From IMG/VR virus record IMGVR_UViG_3300048577_000041, positions 1 through 37,267 of that record: a DNA stretch of 37,267 bases, one strand, 5' to 3'. Shown piece by piece: positions 1 to 17,009 of the stretch. The notes below the pieces were generated by a model. The model worked only from the letters and a program-made list of their open reading frames with translations. It did not search any database and had not been told where the DNA came from. The position numbers and the translations under genes were made by a program. Numbering within the stretch: the stretch's first letter is position 1; every line of letters begins with the position of its first letter. Source of the DNA: a virus (taxonomy: Duplodnaviria > Caudoviricetes).

Positions 1-329
1 TCGGGGACCGTGTCTGGGCCGGTGTCGGGGACGGTGTCCGGGCCGGTGTCTGGGCCGGTGTCGGGGACGGTGTCGGGGACGGTGTCGGGGACGGTGTCCG
101 GGACGGTGTCCGGGCCGGTGCCTGGGCCGGTGTCGGGGACGGTGTCCGGGACGGTGTCTGGGACGGTGTCGGGGCCGGTGTCTGGGCCGGTGCCTGGGCC
201 GGTGTCGGGGACGGTGTCCGGGACGGTGTCTGGGACGGTGTCGGGGCCGGTGTCGGGGACGGTGTCCGGGACGGTGTCTGGGACGGTGTCGGGGCCGGTG
301 TCTGGGCCGGTGTCGGGGACGGTGCCCGG
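1..329 (+). repeat. 12-bp tandem coding repeat GGTGTC(T/C/G)GGG(A/C)C, about 27 units
   Basis: Directly visible. It encodes G-V-[G/R/W]-[D/A] units. Confidence 0.95.
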
Positions 330-1070
330 GAGATCCTTGCCCAGTATCCCGAGCAGATGCATGGGCCGATCCTGGCCGGCCTTCGTCGCGCCGCTCGCGA
401 GGTGTGGAGTTCGTTCCGGGGCGGCAATCTCTGGGCTGGCGACTACGCGTGGATTCAGTGGTTCCGGACTGTCGGTCACCTCGAGCTGGCCGGCGATCTG
501 TGGGACCGGCACGACGCAGATGTGAGGCTCGCGGCGGCCGGCCCGCAGTTCTGGTACCGGGCCGGCGATCGGTGCGTGGTGGCCGTCTCGGATCGTCCGG
601 TGCAGATCAGCCGCGACCCGCTGGGCCGCAGCCACAGCGACACTGGCCCGGCCGCCTCGTGGGCGGACGGCTGGCGATTCAACACCTGGCACGGCACCAC
701 CGTGCCGCCCGACTTCTACGGCTGGGACGTGGCTCGCGCACTGGCCGAGAAGAACTCCGAGGTGCGCCGGTGCGCGATCGAGCGGCTCGGCTGGGACACC
801 GTCACCGACCGGATGCGGCTCGTCGCGACCGCGGACGATCCGGGCAATCCGAGCCAGGTCCTGGCCCTGTACGACCTGGACACGCTGGCCGGCCTGTACG
901 ACGCGGACGCCCGGATCTTGCTCGTCTCCAACGCGTCGCTCGACAAGGGCGGCCACCGGCGCCGGTTCGGCCTGCCGGTCCCCGGTCACCACACAGACCC
1001 GGTCGCCGCGGCCGCCGAACTCTTCAACGTGCCTGCTCACACCTACCGGCAGCTCGCCCGAGCTTGCTGA
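3..1070 (+). CDS. DUF6745-like phage protein with N-terminal tetrapeptide repeats (5' partial)
   Basis: Frame 3 is open from the window start into the 357..1070 ORF. It reads [16 protein letters not shown]...[16 protein letters not shown]. The C-terminal [23 protein letters not shown]...WHG...[16 protein letters not shown] resembles DUF6745. Confidence 0.75.
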
Positions 1071-8820: not shown

Positions 8821-9408
8821 GTGTACATCACCCGCATCGTGCTGACCTCGAAGGGACAGCGCCAAGCCCGGGATATCCGGGCAATCCACCAGACCGTCGG
8901 GTACTTGACCGACGCGTCCACCGGCCGTGTCCTGTGGTGCCTACCGCGGCGTGACCTGCTCATCGTGCAGGCCGACCATCCGTGCGACGTGCGGCTCACG
9001 CCCGGTCTGGCGGTGTCGTCGGCGCATGCCGAGGTGTGCACCGACTGGGCGGCCGGGCAGCGGGTCCTCGTGTCCTTGATCGCCGTCCCGGAGGTGGCGG
9101 TCAGCAGGCCGGGCCGGCAGCGCAGCGTCCGTCGCCCGCTGACCGTCGATGACTGGCCGGGCTGGCTGGAACGCAGGCTCGCCGGCGCTCTCACACTGGA
9201 CGACATCCAGGTGGAGCCGATGGGGGCGCGGATCGGACGCAAGGCCGGGACGCGGATCATCGTCGACTGGGTCGGGTATGCCGCAGCCGGGACCGTCATG
9301 GACCCCGCAACCCTCGCAGCGCTCCAGCGTGACGGGGTCGGTCCGCACAAGGCATACGGTGCTGGGCTCCTGCTGGTCACCACCGACAGCAAAGCGCGGG
9401 CGGCATGA
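8821..9408 (+). CDS. cas6e: Cas6e/CasE-like CRISPR RNA-processing RAMP
   Basis: MYITRIVL start, early His (IHQTV), RVLW...LLIVQ, WLERR, and the C-terminal G-loop GVGPHKAYGAGLL typical of type I-E Cas6. Confidence 0.82.
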   Translation: MYITRIVLTSKGQRQARDIRAIHQTVGYLTDASTGRVLWCLPRRDLLIVQADHPCDVRLTPGLAVSSAHAEVCTDWAAGQRVLVSLIAVPEVAVSRPGRQRSVRRPLTVDDWPGWLERRLAGALTLDDIQVEPMGARIGRKAGTRIIVDWVGYAAAGTVMDPATLAALQRDGVGPHKAYGAGLLLVTTDSKARAA

Positions 9409-10109
9409 CCGCCCCCACCAGCCTCGTCTGGGACCTCGCCGGGAGGCCGGGGCCAGCCAAGCCGCTGGAAGACGTGCCAGGCTGGTGCGCCATCTCTGGC
9501 GAGTGGTGCGAGCGGACCGCCGACGTGACCAAGTCGCTCGGTTCGAACTTCACCGACCGCCGCTGCTTTGCTCGCGACGACTCGACGAGGGTAGGGCCGG
9601 GGGCGCTGTGGGCTTTGACCGGACGCGGCCTCCAGACCCTGCGCATGTGGACGATCATCGCCGGCGCCGACTCCGGCCCGTCCCACGAGAAGGCGTGGCT
9701 CGGAAGCCGTCCCGGTCTGACTCTGCTGAACCGGGCGAACCCGATGCCGGTCCACCGGCTGCTGTCCGACCCGCCCGAGACGGAATGGCTGCTGTCGGTG
9801 GCCGTCTCCGGCCAGAAGCACGTCCTGCCCTACGCCCAGGTCAACAGCGGGCGCTCATGGACGGTGCGGATGGAGACCACCGACATCACCGCCACCTCCG
9901 ACCAGTGGGCCCACGTCCACACCCACACCCTCGCGCTGCGCAGACTCGGCGTCCCTGCCGACGCCATCCCGCAGCGGGAGCCGCGCTACATCAAGACCAG
10001 CGAAGCGCTCGCTCAGTGGCGCGAGCACGACCTGGCTCTCACCGGCTGGCACACCAGCCCGCTACTCGACCTCGCACTGTGGACCATCACGAAGGAGACC
10101 ATGCAATGA
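9405..10109 (+). CDS. csf1: type IV Csf1 (Cas8-like large subunit)
   Basis: Position in the operon. Motifs C...G, SNFTD, LL.DPP...W...VA.SGQKHVLPYA.VN and LRRLGV resemble IV-B Csf1. Confidence 0.72.
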   Translation: MTAPTSLVWDLAGRPGPAKPLEDVPGWCAISGEWCERTADVTKSLGSNFTDRRCFARDDSTRVGPGALWALTGRGLQTLRMWTIIAGADSGPSHEKAWLGSRPGLTLLNRANPMPVHRLLSDPPETEWLLSVAVSGQKHVLPYAQVNSGRSWTVRMETTDITATSDQWAHVHTHTLALRRLGVPADAIPQREPRYIKTSEALAQWREHDLALTGWHTSPLLDLALWTITKETMQ

Positions 10110-10477
10110 CACCCGAGACCCTGGACAGGCTCACCATCGACCTGATCTTCGCGCTCCGCGACAGCCTCACCGACCTGTCCCCGATCGACTTCTGGTCGGG
10201 CCGGCTCAAGACGGCTCTCGACACGGCCGCCGCCGGCTCATCACGGGCCGGGGAGGCCCTGACCACCGCCGCACGCAAACTCCAGATCGACATCATCACC
10301 GCCAAGCCGGCCCCGGTAGCGGTCGCCACCTGCGCCGCGATCGATGCCGACTACCCGGCATGGGCATCCCACATCTCCCGGAACTCCACCTACATCGTCG
10401 CGCTCGCCTACGCCGAGCGCGACCTCCACTCCCGCGCCCGGAAGGACCCCAGCAATGACCAGCAGCCCACGTTCTGA
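10106..10477 (+). CDS. cas11: type IV-B small subunit (Cas11-like)
   Basis: 123-aa helical protein between csf1 and csf2. AAGGAG RBS, ATGA overlap, and FWSGRL...ARKLQI. Confidence 0.65.
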   Translation: MTPETLDRLTIDLIFALRDSLTDLSPIDFWSGRLKTALDTAAAGSSRAGEALTTAARKLQIDIITAKPAPVAVATCAAIDADYPAWASHISRNSTYIVALAYAERDLHSRARKDPSNDQQPTF

Positions 10478-11342
10478 CATCACCCCGGAGGCCACCGTGA
10501 CCATCACATACACCGCGACCCTGACCAGCCCGCTGCACCACGGAGCCGGAACCGCCGGCAACACCAGCCTGCTCCGCACCCAGGAGGTTGTGCAGCCCGA
10601 CGGGACGGTAGCTGCACTGCCGTTCCTGTCGGCCGCCTCGATCCGGCACGCGCTCCGCGACCGGATCGCGTGGCACATCGCCCGCATCCTCGACATCGAG
10701 CCGGGCAGTCTCACCAAGCAGGCGGTCGATCTGCTCTGGTCGGGCGGGGCGGTCACCTCGACCGGTGCTGAGACCGACCTCGACCTCTATCGCAGGGTGG
10801 ATGACCTGCTGCCGTCCCTGACCCTGTTCGGGTACGCAGCAAGGGCGGACATCACCGAGGGCATCCTGCGGGCGTCTGACGCCATCCTGGTGTGCGCCGA
10901 GAACAGCTTCCGGCTTCCTGCCGGGCTGCCGCAGCTCGACCAGCGGGCAGCCGTGTTCCGGGGGGAGGAGTTCGGCACCCGCCACGACGTGGCCGACTCC
11001 CCTGTCGCCCGACTGGTGCAGGCCGCCGACACCCTGATCGGCGCACCAAAGACGACCCAGATGATCTTCGACCTTCAGGTACTCAAGCCGGGCGCGGTGC
11101 TGCACGGCGACATCACCCTCACCCCTGCCGCCACCGGCCAGCACCGCATGGTCCTCGGCGCGGCTCTGGCCCTGTGGGCTCCCGACGGTGAGGCGATGCT
11201 CGGAGCGAAGACCGCGACCGGGTACGGCCGGGCCCGCATCGACGGCCTGCCCGACACCGCCGAGGACCTGGGACGCTGGACCGAGCACCTGCTCGCCCAC
11301 CGGGACAACATCCTCGCCCTGGTCGCCGAGGTAGCGGGATGA
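10455..11342 (+). CDS. csf2: type IV Csf2 (Cas7-like backbone RAMP)
   Basis: LTSPLHHGAGTAGNTSLLR, PFLSAASIRHALRD, LWSGG, P.LTLFG, QMIF..QVL.PG and G-loop GAKTATGYG. An alternative start is GTG 10497 after GGAGG. Confidence 0.88.
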   Translation: MTSSPRSDITPEATVTITYTATLTSPLHHGAGTAGNTSLLRTQEVVQPDGTVAALPFLSAASIRHALRDRIAWHIARILDIEPGSLTKQAVDLLWSGGAVTSTGAETDLDLYRRVDDLLPSLTLFGYAARADITEGILRASDAILVCAENSFRLPAGLPQLDQRAAVFRGEEFGTRHDVADSPVARLVQAADTLIGAPKTTQMIFDLQVLKPGAVLHGDITLTPAATGQHRMVLGAALALWAPDGEAMLGAKTATGYGRARIDGLPDTAEDLGRWTEHLLAHRDNILALVAEVAG

Positions 11343-11935
11343 GCACCCCGCTGCTGGTGACGGCCCGGCTCGACACCCCTAGTGTCGGGCTGGACCGCCA
11401 CCCCCTGATGCTGGACGGTCCCCTGTCATGGGCGTACGCGATGCACGCCCTCGCACACAACCTGCCGCTGGAGCGTGTCACCAAGCTGTACGCGCCGGAC
11501 CTGCCGCTGCCGCTGGACCGGTGGGAGCAGGACGGCACCTGGGGATGGTGCACATCCCGAGCCCGGTTCACGGTGGAGGCGTACACGGCCATCCAGATAC
11601 GCCGTAAGCCCGCCACCCAGGCGATGGCCCGCTACAGCCCCGACCGCAAGCACCATGCGGGGCTGGGCCCGATGAAAGCCCGCGACACCACACTCCAGGC
11701 TGCATGGATCCGCCGCATCGAATGGGACGTGCTCGCCACCGACCCGACCGAGCTTGCCGCGCTGCTGCAGCACATCACCCACATGGGCGAGCGGCACCGC
11801 AACGGACTCGGGCACGTCACGAAATGGACGATCGCGCCCTCGCACCAGCCGGACGCGTGGCGGGACCGGCCCATGCCCGGCGACGGGCAGCCGATGCGCG
11901 CCCCCTACTGGCATCCGTCACGGAGGGTCGCGTGA
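11339..11935 (+). CDS. csf3: type IV Csf3 (Cas5-like RAMP)
   Basis: PLLVTARL, LDGPLSWA, LPLDRW...W.W..S, ITHMG.RHRNGLGHV.KW and RAPYWH. Confidence 0.85.
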   Translation: MSTPLLVTARLDTPSVGLDRHPLMLDGPLSWAYAMHALAHNLPLERVTKLYAPDLPLPLDRWEQDGTWGWCTSRARFTVEAYTAIQIRRKPATQAMARYSPDRKHHAGLGPMKARDTTLQAAWIRRIEWDVLATDPTELAALLQHITHMGERHRNGLGHVTKWTIAPSHQPDAWRDRPMPGDGQPMRAPYWHPSRRVA

Positions 11936-12144
11936 GCATCGAGCAGGCGATCTGGGATTGGCTGCCCGCCCGCGCAGACCGGCGCCGCACCACCGTCCCC
12001 CCGGTGATCGCAGCGAACCTCGGCCTCGAACCGCGCGCCGTGGCCGAGGCGCTGCACCGCATGGAAGCGGGCGGGCACGCCTTCCAGTCCCGCCGCGGCT
12101 CGTGGCACCGCGGCATCCCACTCCCCAAGGAGGACACATGCTGA
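11932..12144 (+). CDS. small winged-helix DNA-binding protein
   Basis: GTGA overlap. IAANLGLEPRAVAEALHRMEAGG..FQSRRGSW fits a wHTH pattern. Confidence 0.6.
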   Translation: MSIEQAIWDWLPARADRRRTTVPPVIAANLGLEPRAVAEALHRMEAGGHAFQSRRGSWHRGIPLPKEDTC

Positions 12145-12881
12145 TCGACTCGCCCCGGCTCACCCCGGCCGACCGGCAGGCGTGGGCGGCACTCGAACGC
12201 TACGACACCGCCCTCGCCGCCCTGCCGTCCTGGCCAGCCAAAGAGCAGCACGCCCAGCAGGTCATCCGCGACTTCGCCGCCGGCGGACCTTGCTACGCCT
12301 CCACCTCGTGGGGCAAGGACTCCACCTGTATGGCCCACCTGGTCGCCACCAGCGGAGTGGTGCTGCCGGTGGTGTATGTGCGGATGCGGCGCTGGGAGAA
12401 CCCCGACTGCCTCACCGTCCGGGACCAGTTCCTCGACCGCTACGGCGACCAGGTCGACTACCACGAATACTGGGTCGACGGTGGTCCCCGCTGGTGGGAC
12501 GGCCCCGACCAGACGACCCTGAAGTCAGGCTCGCACGTCGGAAGCCAGTTCGCCGAGGCCGAGCGCCATCACGGCACCCGACACATCTCCGGCGTCCGAG
12601 GCGACGAGTCCCGGATGCGGCAGATGGCGATGGGGCGGTGGGGCGAAGCAGGCCCGTCAGCGTGCCGCCCGATCGGCCGCTGGAGAGCTACCGACGTGTA
12701 CGCCTACCTGCACCGCCACGACCTGCCCGTCCATTCCGCCTACGCCATGAGTTTCGGTGGCCACCTCGACCGGCAATGGCTCCGCGTCTCACCCATCGGC
12801 GGCATCACCCAGGCCCACAAGCAGCGCGCGGACTGGGAAGCGGCCTACTACCCAGACATCGTCCGACAGGAGCAGCCGTGA
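12138..12881 (+). CDS. cysH: CysH/PAPS-reductase-family protein of type IV-B locus
   Basis: AAGGAGG RBS. PP-loop STSWGKDS, ISGVRGDES..R and PIGRW...DVYAYL..HDLP. Location matches IV-B loci. Confidence 0.85.
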   Translation: MLIDSPRLTPADRQAWAALERYDTALAALPSWPAKEQHAQQVIRDFAAGGPCYASTSWGKDSTCMAHLVATSGVVLPVVYVRMRRWENPDCLTVRDQFLDRYGDQVDYHEYWVDGGPRWWDGPDQTTLKSGSHVGSQFAEAERHHGTRHISGVRGDESRMRQMAMGRWGEAGPSACRPIGRWRATDVYAYLHRHDLPVHSAYAMSFGGHLDRQWLRVSPIGGITQAHKQRADWEAAYYPDIVRQEQP

Positions 12882-13891
12882 CGGATTTCCTGGACCCCAA
12901 GCGGCGCGACCGGCTCAAGCGGTGGCTCGACACCCTGCCCGAACTGGCCGCGCTCGCCCAGGTGGTCGCCGACACCCTGCTGCCCCGCCGCGGCGGCCAC
13001 GGTGGCAGCCGCCCCCACCCCGGATCCAGACCGCCCGTGAGCCTCGGGCTGATCGACACCCTCGATGCCCGCCCGAAACGGCAAGGCCGCTACGCCGGGT
13101 CCGGGGCGGACACGATCGCCACCTCCGGCGACGACATGGCCGACGCGGTGCAGCTCGAGACATGGGCGGCCCGCCAGCAGGGCAAGGACACCCACAACGT
13201 GGACGGCAAGCCCCCCGCCTGGTCACGCGACACCGACGAGGTGCTGCGGCTGTCTGTCGACGCCAAAGGCGCCCGGGAGGGCATCCTGCGCAACCTGGGC
13301 GACTGGGTCCGGATCTGCGTCGAGGAGATGGACGAAGCCCTCGCCGCCCACACCGAACCGGCGGGCAAGCGGGACGTGTGGGTGGTCGACTCTCGTGGCG
13401 ACTGCTGGGCCGGGTTCGTGGAGACCGCCACCATCACCACCGAGGCTGGCTGGCTGTCGATGCACCTGGACTGGATCGCTCAGCAGCAATGGTCCGACGA
13501 GCTCGCCGAGGATGTCCACCGGATGCACCGCGACCTCAAGCGCATCATCGGCGAGGGCAGGCCCGAGTACCGGCCGCTGTGCACCGGCTGCTCCACCGAC
13601 ATCCGCCGCCAGCGGATGCGGGACGAGGGCGCCTACTTCACCTGCCCCAACTGCGGCCGGCAGGTACGCGACGGCCAGATGGACCACCGGCAGGCGCTCG
13701 CCACCGAGCAGCCGATGGACTCCCAGAGCTTCGGCTGGGCCGGAGTGTCCTCCGAGCGCATCCGCAAATGGGTGGAGCGCGGCGAACTGGGGCCCGCCCT
13801 GGATGAGCAGGGGCAGGTGATGAAGCGCGGCAAGCGTCATCTCTACCACCCGCTCGACGTGCTTAGGGTTCGCGACGAGATGGGCGCGTGA
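12878..13891 (+). CDS. putative late-gene regulator (zinc ribbon plus C-terminal HTH)
   Basis: CTGC...CPNCG and VSSERIRKWVERGEL...LY...DV. It is the last gene before the packaging module. Confidence 0.6.
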   Translation: MTDFLDPKRRDRLKRWLDTLPELAALAQVVADTLLPRRGGHGGSRPHPGSRPPVSLGLIDTLDARPKRQGRYAGSGADTIATSGDDMADAVQLETWAARQQGKDTHNVDGKPPAWSRDTDEVLRLSVDAKGAREGILRNLGDWVRICVEEMDEALAAHTEPAGKRDVWVVDSRGDCWAGFVETATITTEAGWLSMHLDWIAQQQWSDELAEDVHRMHRDLKRIIGEGRPEYRPLCTGCSTDIRRQRMRDEGAYFTCPNCGRQVRDGQMDHRQALATEQPMDSQSFGWAGVSSERIRKWVERGELGPALDEQGQVMKRGKRHLYHPLDVLRVRDEMGA

Positions 13892-13930
13892 CTTGTCCGG
13901 AACCTACAACAGATCGGCGGCGCCATGCCG

Positions 13931-13936
13931 TACACT
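13931..13936 (+). promoter_or_regulatory. possible -10 element (TACACT) of a late/ncRNA promoter
   Basis: TANNNT hexamer just downstream of the putative late regulator. No clear -35. Confidence 0.3.
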
Positions 13937-14124
13937 GACGGTGATGGTTGGTGGTTCTCCCCAACTGTGACAATCGGCACATGTGGCATGCCCAGAGTCC
14001 ACCCGTTGAGGCCAGTGGCTTCCGCCATTGAGCCCCGAATCAGCGGCCACCCCAAAAGTTCGGATACCCGTGAGGTCGTGGGCGCGGGAGAGCCTGACGG
14101 CAGCTCCGTCGAGATGATCGGGTA

Positions 14125-14153
14125 GCGGCTTTCGCGCTAGCGCGGGTGAGCCG
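14125..14153 (+). CRISPR. solitary or degenerate type I-E-like CRISPR repeat
   Basis: 29-nt GCGGCTTTCGCGCTAGCGCGGGTGAGCCG has a central palindrome and a 3' GTGAGCCG handle, like actinobacterial I-E repeats. A partial second copy GCGCGGGAGAGCCT lies at 14082-14095. Confidence 0.45.
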
Positions 14154-14172
14154 TCCGGGACTTGCGACCAAA

Positions 14173-14255
14173 GGTAGGCGTCCGGCAGGTCGAGGACATC
14201 GCCCCGAAAGCGACTGGCGGGCAACCGCTCCAGAGTTCGAGTCTCTGGCCTACCG
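14173..14255 (+). tRNA. tRNA-Ser(CGA)-like, atypical
   Basis: Acceptor GGTAGGC/GCCTACC plus G73. Anticodon arm TCGC-CCCGAAA-GCGA. Long variable arm GCGG-GCAA-CCGC. T arm CAGAG-TTCGAGT-CTCTG. It has C33 instead of U33 and no encoded CCA. Confidence 0.75.
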
Positions 14256-14299
14256 CATGAACACCCGACCCTCTCCCGCCCACCGCGCCGGCCCCAGGC

Positions 14300-14372
14300 T
14301 TGACGACATCTCATCGGGTAGAGCGGCTGCCTAGTAAGCAGCGGGTGCGGGGTTCGAGTCCTCGTCGGTCCT
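14300..14372 (+). tRNA. tRNA-Thr(AGT)-like, degenerate acceptor stem (possible pseudo-tRNA)
   Basis: D arm CTC-ATCGGGTA-GAG. Anticodon arm GCTGC-CTAGTAA-GCAGC. T arm CGGGG-TTCGAGT-CCTCG. The acceptor stem is only partly paired. Confidence 0.6.
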
Positions 14373-14478
14373 CCCCGTCCTCGCCGCTGCAGCTACCGCA
14401 CCACACACCACTCAGGGCCAACGGCCGGCCCACCATTGAGGACGGGCGGGATCGCCGGCGGCGAGGACAGGCAAAAGC

Positions 14479-14730
14479 TCAGCGGCGGCGGAACACCGGG
14501 TACGCCTGAGGATTCCCCTTCTGGTCGGTCGATCCGGCCCACTGGATCAACACCCACCCCTCACGCTCCACGGCCTCGATCATCGCCGACCAGTCCGGGA
14601 TCTCACCCGACAGGCCCATCGTGAACGTCGGCGTGTTCAGCAGCGCAGCGAAGATGTACTGGTCACCAGCGTGCGCGGCGCGAGCCTGAGCAGCCAGCTT
14701 GTCAGCCTTGGCGTTACGGACCATTCCCAT
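14479..14730 (-). CDS. hypothetical protein (reverse-strand moron-like gene)
   Basis: 83-aa ORF MGMVRNAKADKLAAQA...WSAMIEAVEREGWVL.QW...AYPVFRRR with protein-like composition. Confidence 0.6.
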   Translation of the reverse strand: MGMVRNAKADKLAAQARAAHAGDQYIFAALLNTPTFTMGLSGEIPDWSAMIEAVEREGWVLIQWAGSTDQKGNPQAYPVFRRR

Positions 14731-14764
14731 GCTCAGCAGCCTAGGGTCATGAAAGGCATGCGGG

Positions 14765-15028
14765 GTGGCGAAAGACGGATACGGGTGGGACCACAAGAAG
14801 ATGCGGGCCAACCTGGTCGAGCAGATGAACCGCGACGGACACCTCACCTGCTGGCGCTGCGGCGAACCCATCTACCCCGAGGGCGAATGGCACCTCGGCC
14901 ACGACGACCACGACCGCAGCATCCGCCATGGCCCCGAACACGCCCGCCAGTGCAACCTTCGAGCGGCCGGACTCAAGAGCGCAGGCAAACTCAGCCCCAT
15001 CAAAGCCAGCCGCAACTGGTGGAACTGA
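14765..15028 (+). CDS. HNH endonuclease (terminase-associated)
   Basis: YGWDH...CWRCGEPI...WHLGHDD...GPEHA..CN, located directly upstream of the terminase genes. Confidence 0.85.
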   Translation: MAKDGYGWDHKKMRANLVEQMNRDGHLTCWRCGEPIYPEGEWHLGHDDHDRSIRHGPEHARQCNLRAAGLKSAGKLSPIKASRNWWN

Positions 15029-15099
15029 TGAAATCTGTTGCGAAGGTCACCGGCAGGACATTCACTAAGGAAGCCTCCGAATCCGGCCCGGGCGAGCCC

Positions 15100-15200
15100 A
15101 TGTGGACGCATACCACCTAGCCAGAGCGGTTTTTTCAGGGGCGAGACGCCACAAAGACCGCTCTCGAAGTCCATCTCCCCCCGAGTTCGAGAAACCTCCG
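15100..15200. other. candidate cos / packaging-initiation region
   Basis: Intergenic gap between HNH and terS. Inverted repeat AGAGCGGT...ACCGCTCT flanks a T-run, followed by CTCCCCCC. The + strand changes from C-rich to G-rich here. Confidence 0.5.
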
Positions 15201-15214
15201 GAGAGCGGGGATTG

Positions 15215-15586
15215 ATGAACTCTGAGCCTGAGGGGTTGGCGGCTGGGGGGCTGGGGCTGTGGCAATCCAGGGCGTGGGAGGGCATGCCGGCTGATGCGTC
15301 GGCGATGCTGCTGGAGGCGTGCCGGGCGAAGGATCGGCTGGACAAGCTGGACGAACTGCTGCGGGGTGACATCGACTGCTGGGCGCGGCTGACGCACCGG
15401 ACGCTGACGGAGGACTACGAGCTGCGGATCGATGCGGCGCTGGTGGCGGCGAACGCCACGGCGGGTTTGATGTCGCGGATGCTCAACGCGATGCCTGCCA
15501 GGCCGAAGGCTGAGGCCGGGGACCGGGGAGGTGTGCTTGTCGACTTCCAAGCGCGTCTCGCTGACCGAGCTGGCGCAGGCCCCTAG
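15215..15586 (+). CDS. terminase small subunit
   Basis: Position, and G..LW....LLEACRAKDRLDKLD..LRG motif of actinophage TerS. Confidence 0.75.
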   Translation: MNSEPEGLAAGGLGLWQSRAWEGMPADASAMLLEACRAKDRLDKLDELLRGDIDCWARLTHRTLTEDYELRIDAALVAANATAGLMSRMLNAMPARPKAEAGDRGGVLVDFQARLADRAGAGP

Positions 15587-17009
15587 GCTCCATTTCGCCC
15601 CGCCACTCGGCGTGACGCTGGGCGACGACGCGGCGGATTTCGCGGCGGCGTTCGGGCTGGTGCTCGATCCGTGGCAGCGGACGGTGCTGCGGGACTGGAT
15701 GGGTGTCCAGCGGTCCGGGATCTACCTGTGCAAGACGTGCGGGCTGAGTGTTCCGCGGCAGAACGGCAAGAACGCGATCATCGAGGCGCGCGAGCTGTTC
15801 GGCATGGTGTTGCTGGGTGAGGCGTTCCTGCACACCGCGCACGAGGTCAAGACGGCCCGCAAGGCGTTCCGTCGGCTGAAGCACTTCTTCGGCGAGCAGG
15901 CGAACGACCCGAACGCGAAGTTCCCGGAGCTGAACGCGCTCGTGGTCGAGGTCCGTTCGACGAACGGGCAGGAAGCGATCTACCTGTCGAACGGCGGCCA
16001 GGTCGAGTTCGTGGCCCGGTCGAAGGGGTCGGGTCGCGGATTCACCGTCGATGTGTTGGTGCTGGATGAGGCGCAACATCTGACCGAGGAGGAGCTGGAG
16101 GCGATCCGGCCGGCGATCTCTGCGGCGCCGAAGGGCAACGCGCAGGTGATCTACACCGGTACCCCGCCGGGCCCGAAGGTGTCGGGCGAGGTGTTCAAGC
16201 GCATCCGGCAGTCGTGTCTGGTGCGGCGGGCGAAGCGGCGCTGCTGGCATGAGTGGTCTGCCGACCCGGAGTCTGTCGATCCGGATTCGAAGCGGTGCCT
16301 GCATCAGGCGAACCCGTCGCTGGGCATGTCCCGGCCGGGTGCTCTGCAGATGGATGTGATCCGGGGCGAGCGTGAAGAGCTTTCCCTGGAGGGGTTCCTG
16401 CGGGAGCGTCTGGGCATGTGGGACGAGGGGCACGCGAAGGACGGCGTGATCTCCCTGCTCGCCTGGAACGAGTGCTTGTCGCCGGATCTGGAGATCGACG
16501 GCAAGCCGACGTTGGCGCTGGACGTGTCGCCGATGCTCACCTTTTCGGGGATCGTCGCGGCCGGCCCGGTGCCGGACGGCCGGGTCGGTGTGGAGGTCAC
16601 CTCGGATGGCGAGTCGCTGATCGACTACCGGGAGGGCACCGAGTGGGCGGTCGAACTACTCACCTCCCACGCTGCCGAGGTGTGGATCGCTGCCGGCTCG
16701 GCGGCGGAGACGCTGGCGAAGCGGCTGACCGATGGTGGATGCACGGTGCAGGTAATGCCGCGCGCCGACTACGCGCAGGCGTGCGTGGCTTTCGCTGCCG
16801 GGGTGGCGTCGAAGCGGTGGGCGCACAGGGGCCAGATCGAACTGGACAAGGCCGTGACTGCCGGCGCGAAGCGGGTCGTCGGCGATGAGGGGCTGTGGAC
16901 GTGGGGCCGGGTCCGGTCAACCTCCGACATCACCCTGCTGGTCGCCGCCACCCTGGCCGCGGCAGCCTCCCAGCGGGCCACGTATAGCCCGATGGCGAAC
17001 ATCCTTTGA
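15531..17009 (+). CDS. terL: terminase large subunit
   Basis: LDPWQ, Walker A PRQNGK, Walker B LVLDEAQ, YTGTPP, ANPSLG and FLRERLG. The exact start is uncertain. Confidence 0.95.
   Translation: MCLSTSKRVSLTELAQAPRLHFAPPLGVTLGDDAADFAAAFGLVLDPWQRTVLRDWMGVQRSGIYLCKTCGLSVPRQNGKNAIIEARELFGMVLLGEAFLHTAHEVKTARKAFRRLKHFFGEQANDPNAKFPELNALVVEVRSTNGQEAIYLSNGGQVEFVARSKGSGRGFTVDVLVLDEAQHLTEEELEAIRPAISAAPKGNAQVIYTGTPPGPKVSGEVFKRIRQSCLVRRAKRRCWHEWSADPESVDPDSKRCLHQANPSLGMSRPGALQMDVIRGEREELSLEGFLRERLGMWDEGHAKDGVISLLAWNECLSPDLEIDGKPTLALDVSPMLTFSGIVAAGPVPDGRVGVEVTSDGESLIDYREGTEWAVELLTSHAAEVWIAAGSAAETLAKRLTDGGCTVQVMPRADYAQACVAFAAGVASKRWAHRGQIELDKAVTAGAKRVVGDEGLWTWGRVRSTSDITLLVAATLAAAASQRATYSPMANIL

What the first reader, a model, noticed from the sequence alone, without database searches (positions are those of the whole stretch)
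14173..14372. Two non-canonical tRNA-like genes directly behind the repeat-like element
Seen: a tRNA-Ser(CGA)-like gene begins 19 nt after the repeat, with C33, a non-standard 8-9 region and no CCA. A tRNA-Thr-like gene follows with anticodon AGT and a broken acceptor stem but intact anticodon and T arms. Established: A34 anticodons other than Arg(ACG) are rare in bacteria, and RNase P cleaves at tRNA 5' ends. Inference: these may be processing signals that define the 3' end of a guide RNA, decoys for anticodon nucleases, or ligands of the PP-loop CysH-like enzyme, rather than decoding tRNAs.
Basis: partly seen in the sequence, partly recalled or inferred. Interest (0 to 1): 0.7.

Follow-up and report, generated by a model that had tools for sequence, protein, structure and literature searches.

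The report
Phage late-operon tRNAs, unrelated to CRISPR
A bacterial virus carries an oddly built but conserved serine tRNA gene and a broken copy of a threonine tRNA gene with an A-starting anticodon; both also occur in a virus lacking the neighbouring CRISPR-like genes, so they likely help make late viral proteins when the host's own tRNAs are cut, rather than serving the CRISPR-like complex.

Summary
Both tRNA-like genes are real; the link to the type IV-B block is not supported. A complete cas-free phage (G001) carries the same 1.1-kb regulator gene (99% identical), an identical Ser gene and an intact Thr(AGT) gene, without the 164 nt holding the 'repeat'. That repeat scores 4.7 bits on a type I-E repeat matrix (true repeats 27-40; chance level). 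None of 21 other IV-B phage records has either gene. The Ser(CGA) gene (14173-14255) is not decayed. It belongs to a small phage family with one nucleotide between acceptor and D stems, with compensatory pairs. It recurs with 0-1 differences between unrelated flanks in three metagenome studies, and relatives sit in the same slot, between regulator and HNH-terminase genes. Thr(AGT) is a common phage tRNA (111 of 119 viral loci fitting the search pattern); the window's copy lost its 5' acceptor strand to a 47-nt replacement. Likely role: late-expressed serine tRNA that keeps UCG decoding going against host tRNA-cutting toxins (inferred, untested). New variant of a known kind; modest interest.

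The parts
14173..14255 (+). tRNA-Ser(CGA) gene, 7/5 acceptor/T architecture, one-nucleotide acceptor-D connector (U8 missing), G14, C33, long variable arm, G73, no encoded CCA
   Evidence: identical in G001; 0-1 differences in runs X6, X7, X8, X11
14263..14309 (+). 47 nt standing in place of the 10 nt that carry the 5' acceptor strand and positions 8-10 of the Thr tRNA in G001
   Evidence: joint 14262 to 14310 in run X4; window form seen in run X1 with 0 differences over 14242-14461; no source found among fetched loci
14310..14372 (+). Remnant of a phage-type tRNA-Thr(AGT): intact D, anticodon and T arms, anticodon at 14333-14335, one change in the 3' acceptor strand relative to G001; likely pseudogene
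   Evidence: (intact G001 copy scores 50.5 bits)
14008..14171 (+). 164-nt optional segment, absent in G001 and in contigs of runs X2 and X4; holds a double hairpin (14008-14070) and the repeat-like stretch
14125..14153 (+).
   Evidence: 4.7 bits; true repeats 27-40; 92% of simulated windows hold as good a site
12878..13891 (+). PHROG 908-like gene with Cys-x2-Cys motifs, likely the late-gene regulator (inferred from position); travels with the tRNA genes
   Evidence: 100% identical protein in G001
8821..12881 (+). Type IV-B-like block (cas6e-like, csf1-like, cas11-like, csf2, csf3, small HTH, cysH-like); neighbour, not partner. The csf1 and cas11 labels come from gene order, not from a family hit
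   Evidence: absent from G001
14765..17009 (+). HNH endonuclease, terminase small and large subunit genes: start of the late operon downstream of the tRNA slot

Best explanation
These are phage tRNA genes in the exchangeable slot between a probable late-gene regulator and the packaging genes, present with or without the IV-B block; the conserved Ser(CGA) gene is likely transcribed late, processed and charged with serine, and would keep UCG codons decoded when host toxins cut the host's tRNA-Ser(CGA), while this phage's Thr(AGT) copy is likely a pseudogene. Shown: the slot, independence from cas, conservation with compensatory pairs, exchange as an exact 84-nt unit, and the break in the Thr gene. 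Inferred: late transcription, RNase P and CCA-adding processing, serylation (long variable arm and G73 are kept), and escape from a VapC-type nuclease through the rebuilt D arm and, in this lineage, C33.
For: (1) G001, complete and cas-free, shares window 12868-14007 at 99%, the Ser gene at 100% and an intact Thr(AGT). The same form is in contigs of two other studies (X2, X4). (2) Relatives of the Ser gene (L266; L289=L325; L362) share the one-base connector. Over 4 sequences, 94 of 96 cells pair and 7 of 24 pairs change on both sides; 0 of 500 shuffles reach this, and slid controls pair 41-51% (few, related sequences). Against a host-type Ser(CGA), 6 of 20 core pairs are compensatory and 19 of 20 pair. 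(3) L266 and L289/L325 lie just behind a regulator-like gene and before HNH and terminase genes; an unrelated C33 Ser(CGA) occupies the pre-HNH slot in the Csf2-free provirus G304, 95% complete. (4) The gene matches exactly over 14173-14256, with unrelated flanks on both sides, in runs of three studies (X6; X7 and X8; X11). (5) G73 and the long variable arm, the SerRS determinants named in PMC5389517, are kept. Host-type genes often lack an encoded CCA too (G003 Thr and Ser(TGA)). (6) A related host-type genome already has Ser(CGA) and three Thr isoacceptors, so the gene adds no missing anticodon; an actinobacterial VapC cuts tRNA-Ser(CGA) (PMC10287673), and phage tRNAs can defeat tRNA-cutting defences (PMC11555353 abstract). 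(7) Thr(AGT): annotated in cultured actinophages and called in 111 of 119 pattern-matched viral loci, 68 distinct genes.
Against: No expression, charging or nuclease data; the RNA-library contigs cannot show transcription. C33 is not a family trait: L266, L289 and L362 have U33, and only 7 of 82 distinct viral Ser(CGA) calls have C33. Mycobacteriophages are reported to avoid Ser(CGA) because VapC cuts inside the anticodon itself (PMC10264068). Loss of U8-A14 and of U33 may lower decoding efficiency (recalled tRNA structure), and some irregular tRNAs are charged but do not translate (PMC5389517). Even the intact G001 Thr gene has G2-C71 and a U3-U70 mismatch, whereas 63 of 68 viral Thr(AGT) start G-C/G-C at pairs 1-72 and 2-71, so it may be poorly charged. 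The host is unknown; the tie to Propionicimonas rests on a 43% identical protein. Three other regulator relatives (L036, L037, L039) have no tRNA in the slot, so the genes are dispensable.
Confidence: 0.55

Rival explanations
1. The Ser RNA is a decoy: it folds like tRNA-Ser(CGA) and occupies a host anticodon nuclease or other tRNA-binding defence protein, but does not decode.
For: U8, A14 and (here) U33 are lost while stems and the CGA loop are conserved; charged but non-translating irregular tRNAs exist (PMC5389517).
Against: SerRS determinants, T loop and a 7/5 acceptor branch are kept; relatives keep U33. Functional tRNAs with a one-base connector are known (PMC7609411 passages).
Confidence: 0.18
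2. Plain supply: the tRNA adds decoding capacity for late genes, with no defence role; its oddities reflect relaxed selection on phage tRNAs.
For: UCG is 53 of 144 Ser codons in seven late genes. Non-standard D arms are frequent in viral Ser(CGA): only 33 of 82 ARAGORN calls have T as eighth base, a crude count since some 5' ends are offset.
Against: UCG is as frequent in three early genes (18 of 46), and ACU is rare in late genes (11 of 137 Thr codons). The gene is nearly invariant across unrelated flanks, which does not fit relaxed selection unless spread was very recent.
Confidence: 0.14
3. The tRNA folds act in cis as RNase P sites that cut or stabilise the late transcript or release neighbouring hairpin RNAs; this would explain a Thr remnant with intact arms.
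For: Position at the head of the late operon among structured hairpins; the window's broken Thr form recurs in run X1.
Against: Anticodon loop and serine identity elements are conserved, which a pure processing signal would not need; several relatives lack any tRNA in the slot.
Confidence: 0.08
4. One reading: RNase P cleavage at the Ser 5' end defines the 3' end of a repeat-plus-19-nt guide for the IV-B complex, or the tRNAs are CysH-like enzyme ligands.
For: The cas block and the 164-nt segment are both present in the window and both absent in G001, a single co-occurrence. The block has its own Cas6e-like gene. The element reaches p about 0.02 if only a 600-nt plus-strand slot is considered, chosen after the fact. 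The JS623 complex binds mixed non-CRISPR RNA (10.1101/2020.07.31.231399 passages).
Against: The tRNA genes occur without cas. The element scores 4.7 bits against 27-40 for 16 true repeats, ranks fifth in its own window and lacks the conserved C-run of the stem. No match better than 9 mismatches in 21 IV-B loci. 0 of 21 IV-B records carry either tRNA. Part of the 164-nt segment precedes another Ser variant in an unrelated contig (X4). A 337-codon phage gene separates cysH from the slot.
Confidence: 0.05

Closest known systems
tRNA genes at the head of a temperate-phage late operon, e.g. ileZ-argN-argO of phage 933W
   Same: Small tRNA set directly behind the late regulator gene and ahead of late genes (GenBank feature table).
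   Different: Actinobacterial-type phage; regulator is PHROG 908-like, not Q; the Ser gene is non-canonical and missed by default scans.
Phage tRNA-Thr(AGT) of Microbacterium phages Necrophoxinus and Hortus1 and Streptomyces phage FlowerPower
   Same: Same anticodon, 80-88% identity over the matched arms.
   Different: Those have intact acceptor stems starting G1-C72, C2-G71; the window's copy is broken and G001's has G2-C71 with a 3-70 mismatch.
Phage tRNAs that counter tRNA-cleaving defences (van den Berg 2023, PMC10264068; Azam 2024, PMC11555353)
   Same: Phage copy of a tRNA that is a known VapC target, with changes around the anticodon.
   Different: Untested here; that analysis found mycobacteriophages avoid Ser(CGA); the main change here is in the D-arm connector.
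(8/4) tRNA-Ser and allo-tRNAs (Mukai 2017, PMC5389517)
   Same: Irregular serine-type tRNA of phages with long variable arm and G73.
   Different: This one is 7/5, with a 10-nt D loop; not an allo-tRNA.
tRNA-Pyl and mammalian mitochondrial tRNA-Ser(UCN) (review PMC7609411)
   Same: One nucleotide between acceptor and D stem (G8 in D. hafniense tRNA-Pyl).
   Different: Those have a 6-bp anticodon stem and a tiny variable arm; this has a 4-5-bp anticodon stem and a long variable arm.

Membership tests
Canonical bacterial tRNA-Ser | Cloverleaf with 7-bp acceptor and 5-bp T stem | tested here: met
Canonical bacterial tRNA-Ser | Long variable arm and G73 | tested here: met
   determinants as stated in PMC5389517
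Canonical bacterial tRNA-Ser | U8, A14 and U33 | tested here: not met
   All three differ; 24 of 24 host-type Ser(CGA) among the top model hits have U33 and, after correcting one offset call, U8
Canonical bacterial tRNA-Ser | Serylation and decoding in vivo | not testable with these tools
   needs biochemistry
Phage tRNA-Thr(AGT) | AGT anticodon in a 7-nt loop with intact D, anticodon and T arms | tested here: met
Phage tRNA-Thr(AGT) | Paired 7-bp acceptor stem with G1-C72 and C2-G71 (threonine determinants, recalled) | tested here: not met
   5' strand replaced in the window; G001 copy has G2-C71
(8/4) or (9/3) allo-tRNA | 8- or 9-bp acceptor stem with 4- or 3-bp T stem | tested here: not met
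   An eighth pair would be G-G; the 5-bp T stem covaries
Type I-E-like CRISPR repeat (upstream element) | Match to the conserved repeat stem and handle | tested here: not met
   4.7 bits against 27-40
Type I-E-like CRISPR repeat (upstream element) | Cleavage by the locus's Cas6e-like protein | not testable with these tools
   needs an in vitro assay
RNA component of type IV-B loci | Co-occurrence with csf2 loci | tested here: not met
   0 of 21 IV-B records; present in cas-free G001

The most novel reading that the evidence does not exclude
This phage has co-opted a pre-existing tRNA: it placed a degenerate repeat hairpin 19 nt upstream, so that its Cas6e-like protein cuts the 5' end and host RNase P the 3' end of a 27-nt mini-guide for the array-less IV-B complex.
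Probability: 0.04. Interest if true: 0.85.

Novelty: new variant of a known kind. Interest (0 to 1): 0.32.

Why it matters
It removes a false lead on the guide RNA of type IV-B systems. It also leaves two modest, testable points. First, there is a conserved phage tRNA-Ser(CGA) architecture without U8 that default ARAGORN and Rfam scans miss, so phage tRNA counts are low; it is a ready substrate for asking how a phage tRNA escapes a nuclease that cuts inside the anticodon. Second, Thr(AGT) is frequent in viral tRNA sets, against a 2026 preprint's statement that such A34 tRNAs are absent from bacteriophages (10.64898/2026.05.15.725136, introduction), although GenBank already annotates them.

Tried and rejected
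BLAST of the Ser gene and of the 164-nt segment against cultured phages gave only short chance-level hits. Promoter and terminator scan found nothing; the whole 589-nt slot folds no better than shuffles (z -0.4). ARAGORN at threshold 80 is noise (88 calls in the window) and was used only to view structures. Rfam found no other RNA family in the slot. G002/L023 is 100% identical to the window and was not counted as independent. Six of 14 C33-pattern loci (L210, L211, L214, L216, L218, L219) and 2 of 7 connector-pattern loci (L380, L386) are chance matches and were dropped; L032 and L038 were uninformative. The U8-less family was not found in 151 genomes by pattern or among the listed top hits in 141 genomes by model, whose best matches are canonical Ser(CGA) genes. 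The Thr pattern rang in 1 of 301 such genomes (control 5 of 5) but missed a non-canonical Thr(AGT) in a G003 array, so that count is a lower bound. Csf2 absence in G305, G307, G308, G332-G334 is weak, as these records are 5-70% complete. Lack of cover over 14059-14169 in the runs shows nothing. Allo-tRNA and tRNA-Pyl readings were rejected on stem lengths. PMC13015707 had no passage on these anticodons. No earlier scan note matched this place or sequence.

Full report
Setting. The window is a whole 37,267-bp virus record, 78% complete. Family scans give, in order: replication genes; a type IV-B-like block at 8821-12881 with Cas6e-like, Csf2, Csf3 and CysH-like hits; a PHROG 908-like gene at 12878-13891; a non-coding slot; then HNH, terminase, portal and capsid genes. 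The csf1 and cas11 labels come from gene order. The host is unknown. The only named relative of the PHROG 908-like protein is from a Propionicimonas MAG at 43% identity; I used its family as a host proxy (the family name Propionibacteriaceae is recalled).

Observation. The 8-9 oddity is a missing U8: aligned to a host-type Ser(CGA), one G links acceptor and D stem, and A14 is G.

Independence from cas. A scan with the PHROG 908-like protein found two records: G002, a 100% duplicate, and G001. G001 (47,830 bp, 100% complete) matches window 12868-14007 at 99%, carries the Ser gene unchanged and an intact Thr(AGT) just behind it (Rfam 50.5 bits), lacks 14008-14171, and has different head genes. 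None of the seven block proteins matches it at E<=0.01; the Csf2 search rang in 3 of 3 known IV-B records. Contigs of two other studies show the same 164-nt skip (X2, X4), and X4 also the intact Thr start. In the other direction, 21 Csf2 loci were fetched. In their whole records, 4 of 21 have a tRNA above the Rfam cut-off (Arg, Trp plus Gln, Trp, Val), none Ser or Thr. A model of the U8-less family finds 0 of 21 (best 32 bits, a Trp tRNA), while canonical Ser(CGA) genes score up to 65 bits. One IV-B phage (L006) has canonical Trp and Gln genes ahead of its terminase genes, which fits a slot effect.

The repeat. I-E arrays were recovered from 24 of 30 cas2 loci; 16 distinct 28-mers made a weight matrix. 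True repeats score 27-40 bits, the element 4.7. It ranks fifth in the window; 92 of 100 simulated windows hold as good a site; 2.3% of 600-nt single-strand slots do. No IV-B locus has a match better than 9 mismatches. Against my reading: block and 164-nt segment are jointly present here and jointly absent in G001, one case. Part of that segment (14015-14053) precedes a further Ser variant with the same connector in another contig (X4), suggesting slot cargo.

The Ser gene is maintained. Pattern scans gave 14 viral loci with C33 (2 this module, 6 other cloverleafs, 6 chance) and 116 with U33 from 58 of 64 parts of the collection. Among 82 distinct Ser(CGA) calls from 113 of these 130 loci, three sequences share the one-base connector: L266, L289 (=L325) and L362. 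The four-sequence alignment pairs 97.9% of cells with 7 of 24 pairs changed on both sides, above all 500 shuffles and all slid controls; the set is small and related, so this is supportive, not a probability. L266 lies about 100 nt behind a PHROG 908-like homologue and before HNH-like and terminase genes; L289/L325 lies behind a Cys-rich regulator-like gene and before an HNH-like gene; the unrelated C33 gene L207 sits with Met and Glu tRNAs before HNH and terminase in a Csf2-free provirus (HNH labels there are my reading of the motifs). Of eight runs laid, four (X6, X7, X8, X11; three studies) hold exactly 14173-14256 with 0-1 differences and unrelated flanks, two hold the G001 form, one holds only the 3' end in the window's form, one lacks it. 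So the gene moves or is conserved as a precise unit.

The Thr gene. Best BLAST hits are annotated tRNA-Thr of actinophages; the three records opened read AGT. A pattern scan of 31 of 64 parts of IMG/VR gave 119 loci, 111 called Thr(AGT) at default, 68 distinct, 89 loci with three or more tRNAs; several record names mark giant viruses, and I did not separate eukaryotic viruses. In host-proxy genomes the pattern rang in 1 of 301. In the window 47 nt stand where G001 has the 10-nt 5' end, and one 3' acceptor base differs; the fold is worse than shuffles. The same form occurs in run X1 with no difference, so it is not an assembly error. I read it as a pseudogene; residual pairing of five base pairs is possible.

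Mechanism. Shown: slot, independence, conservation, break. Inferred: transcription from the late promoter, trimming by RNase P, CCA addition, serylation through variable arm and G73, and UCG decoding when the host's tRNA-Ser(CGA) is cut. Support is indirect: the host proxy already has this anticodon, UCG is not enriched in late genes, and an actinobacterial VapC cuts this tRNA and is predicted to read the D and anticodon arm. Against: U33 in relatives, reported avoidance of Ser(CGA) by mycobacteriophages, possible loss of decoding efficiency. Decoy, plain supply and cis-processing remain open.

Papers, as seen: 10.1101/2020.07.31.231399 passages; 10.64898/2026.05.15.725136 abstract, passages, first part of the introduction, reporting that Thr(AGT) replaced thrT in E. 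coli; PMC10264068 passages; PMC8421152 passages; PMC5389517 abstract, first part of results and section 16; PMC7609411 passages; PMC10287673 passages and section 9; PMC11555353 abstract; PMC13015707 passages. No supplements were read; those of PMC5389517 (irregular 7/5 tRNAs) and PMC10264068 could already show such genes. Searches for a IV-B-tRNA link, for phage Thr(AGT) and for a one-base-connector phage tRNA-Ser listed no paper describing them; the library is partial.

Verdict. Observation confirmed; cas link not supported; anti-nuclease role plausible. New variant of a known kind, interest 0.32.

Noticed in passing
window 14370-14475: Long irregular hairpin (z -3.3), kept in G001 and similar to a hairpin before the HNH gene in L037:7095-7200 with changes that keep pairing; also in run X15 with 3 differences. 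Possibly a conserved late-operon RNA motif.
   Followed up: partly
window 14008-14070: Double hairpin (z -3.6); its first part precedes another U8-less Ser variant in a contig of run X4.
   Followed up: partly
window 14074-14169: A 9-10-bp closing stem brackets the repeat-like stretch in a ~95-nt fold ending just before the Ser gene (z -1.2); no homologue found.
   Followed up: partly
window 8821-9408; L001-L021: All 21 Csf2 loci have a match to the Cas6e-like protein upstream of the csf1-like gene, unlike the Cas6-less JS623 IV-B operon.
   Followed up: no
window 1-331: Tandem copies of about 60 nt at 87-92% identity.
   Followed up: no
window 14479-14739 (minus strand): Small ORF without family hit, inserted between the hairpin and the HNH gene; G001 has a different 143-codon gene there.
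   Followed up: no
L159 (G003:C14:99500-106000): tRNA array with many non-canonical D arms, including a Thr(AGT) with G8-U9 and C33.
   Followed up: no
L370:1499-1574; L025:697-782: Other A34 tRNAs in phages: Val(AAC) in IV-B record G329 and Ser(AGA) in Streptomyces phage FlowerPower and relatives.
   Followed up: no
L215:2678-3063; L209: Clusters of three or four serine isoacceptor genes side by side, the CGA one with C33.
   Followed up: no
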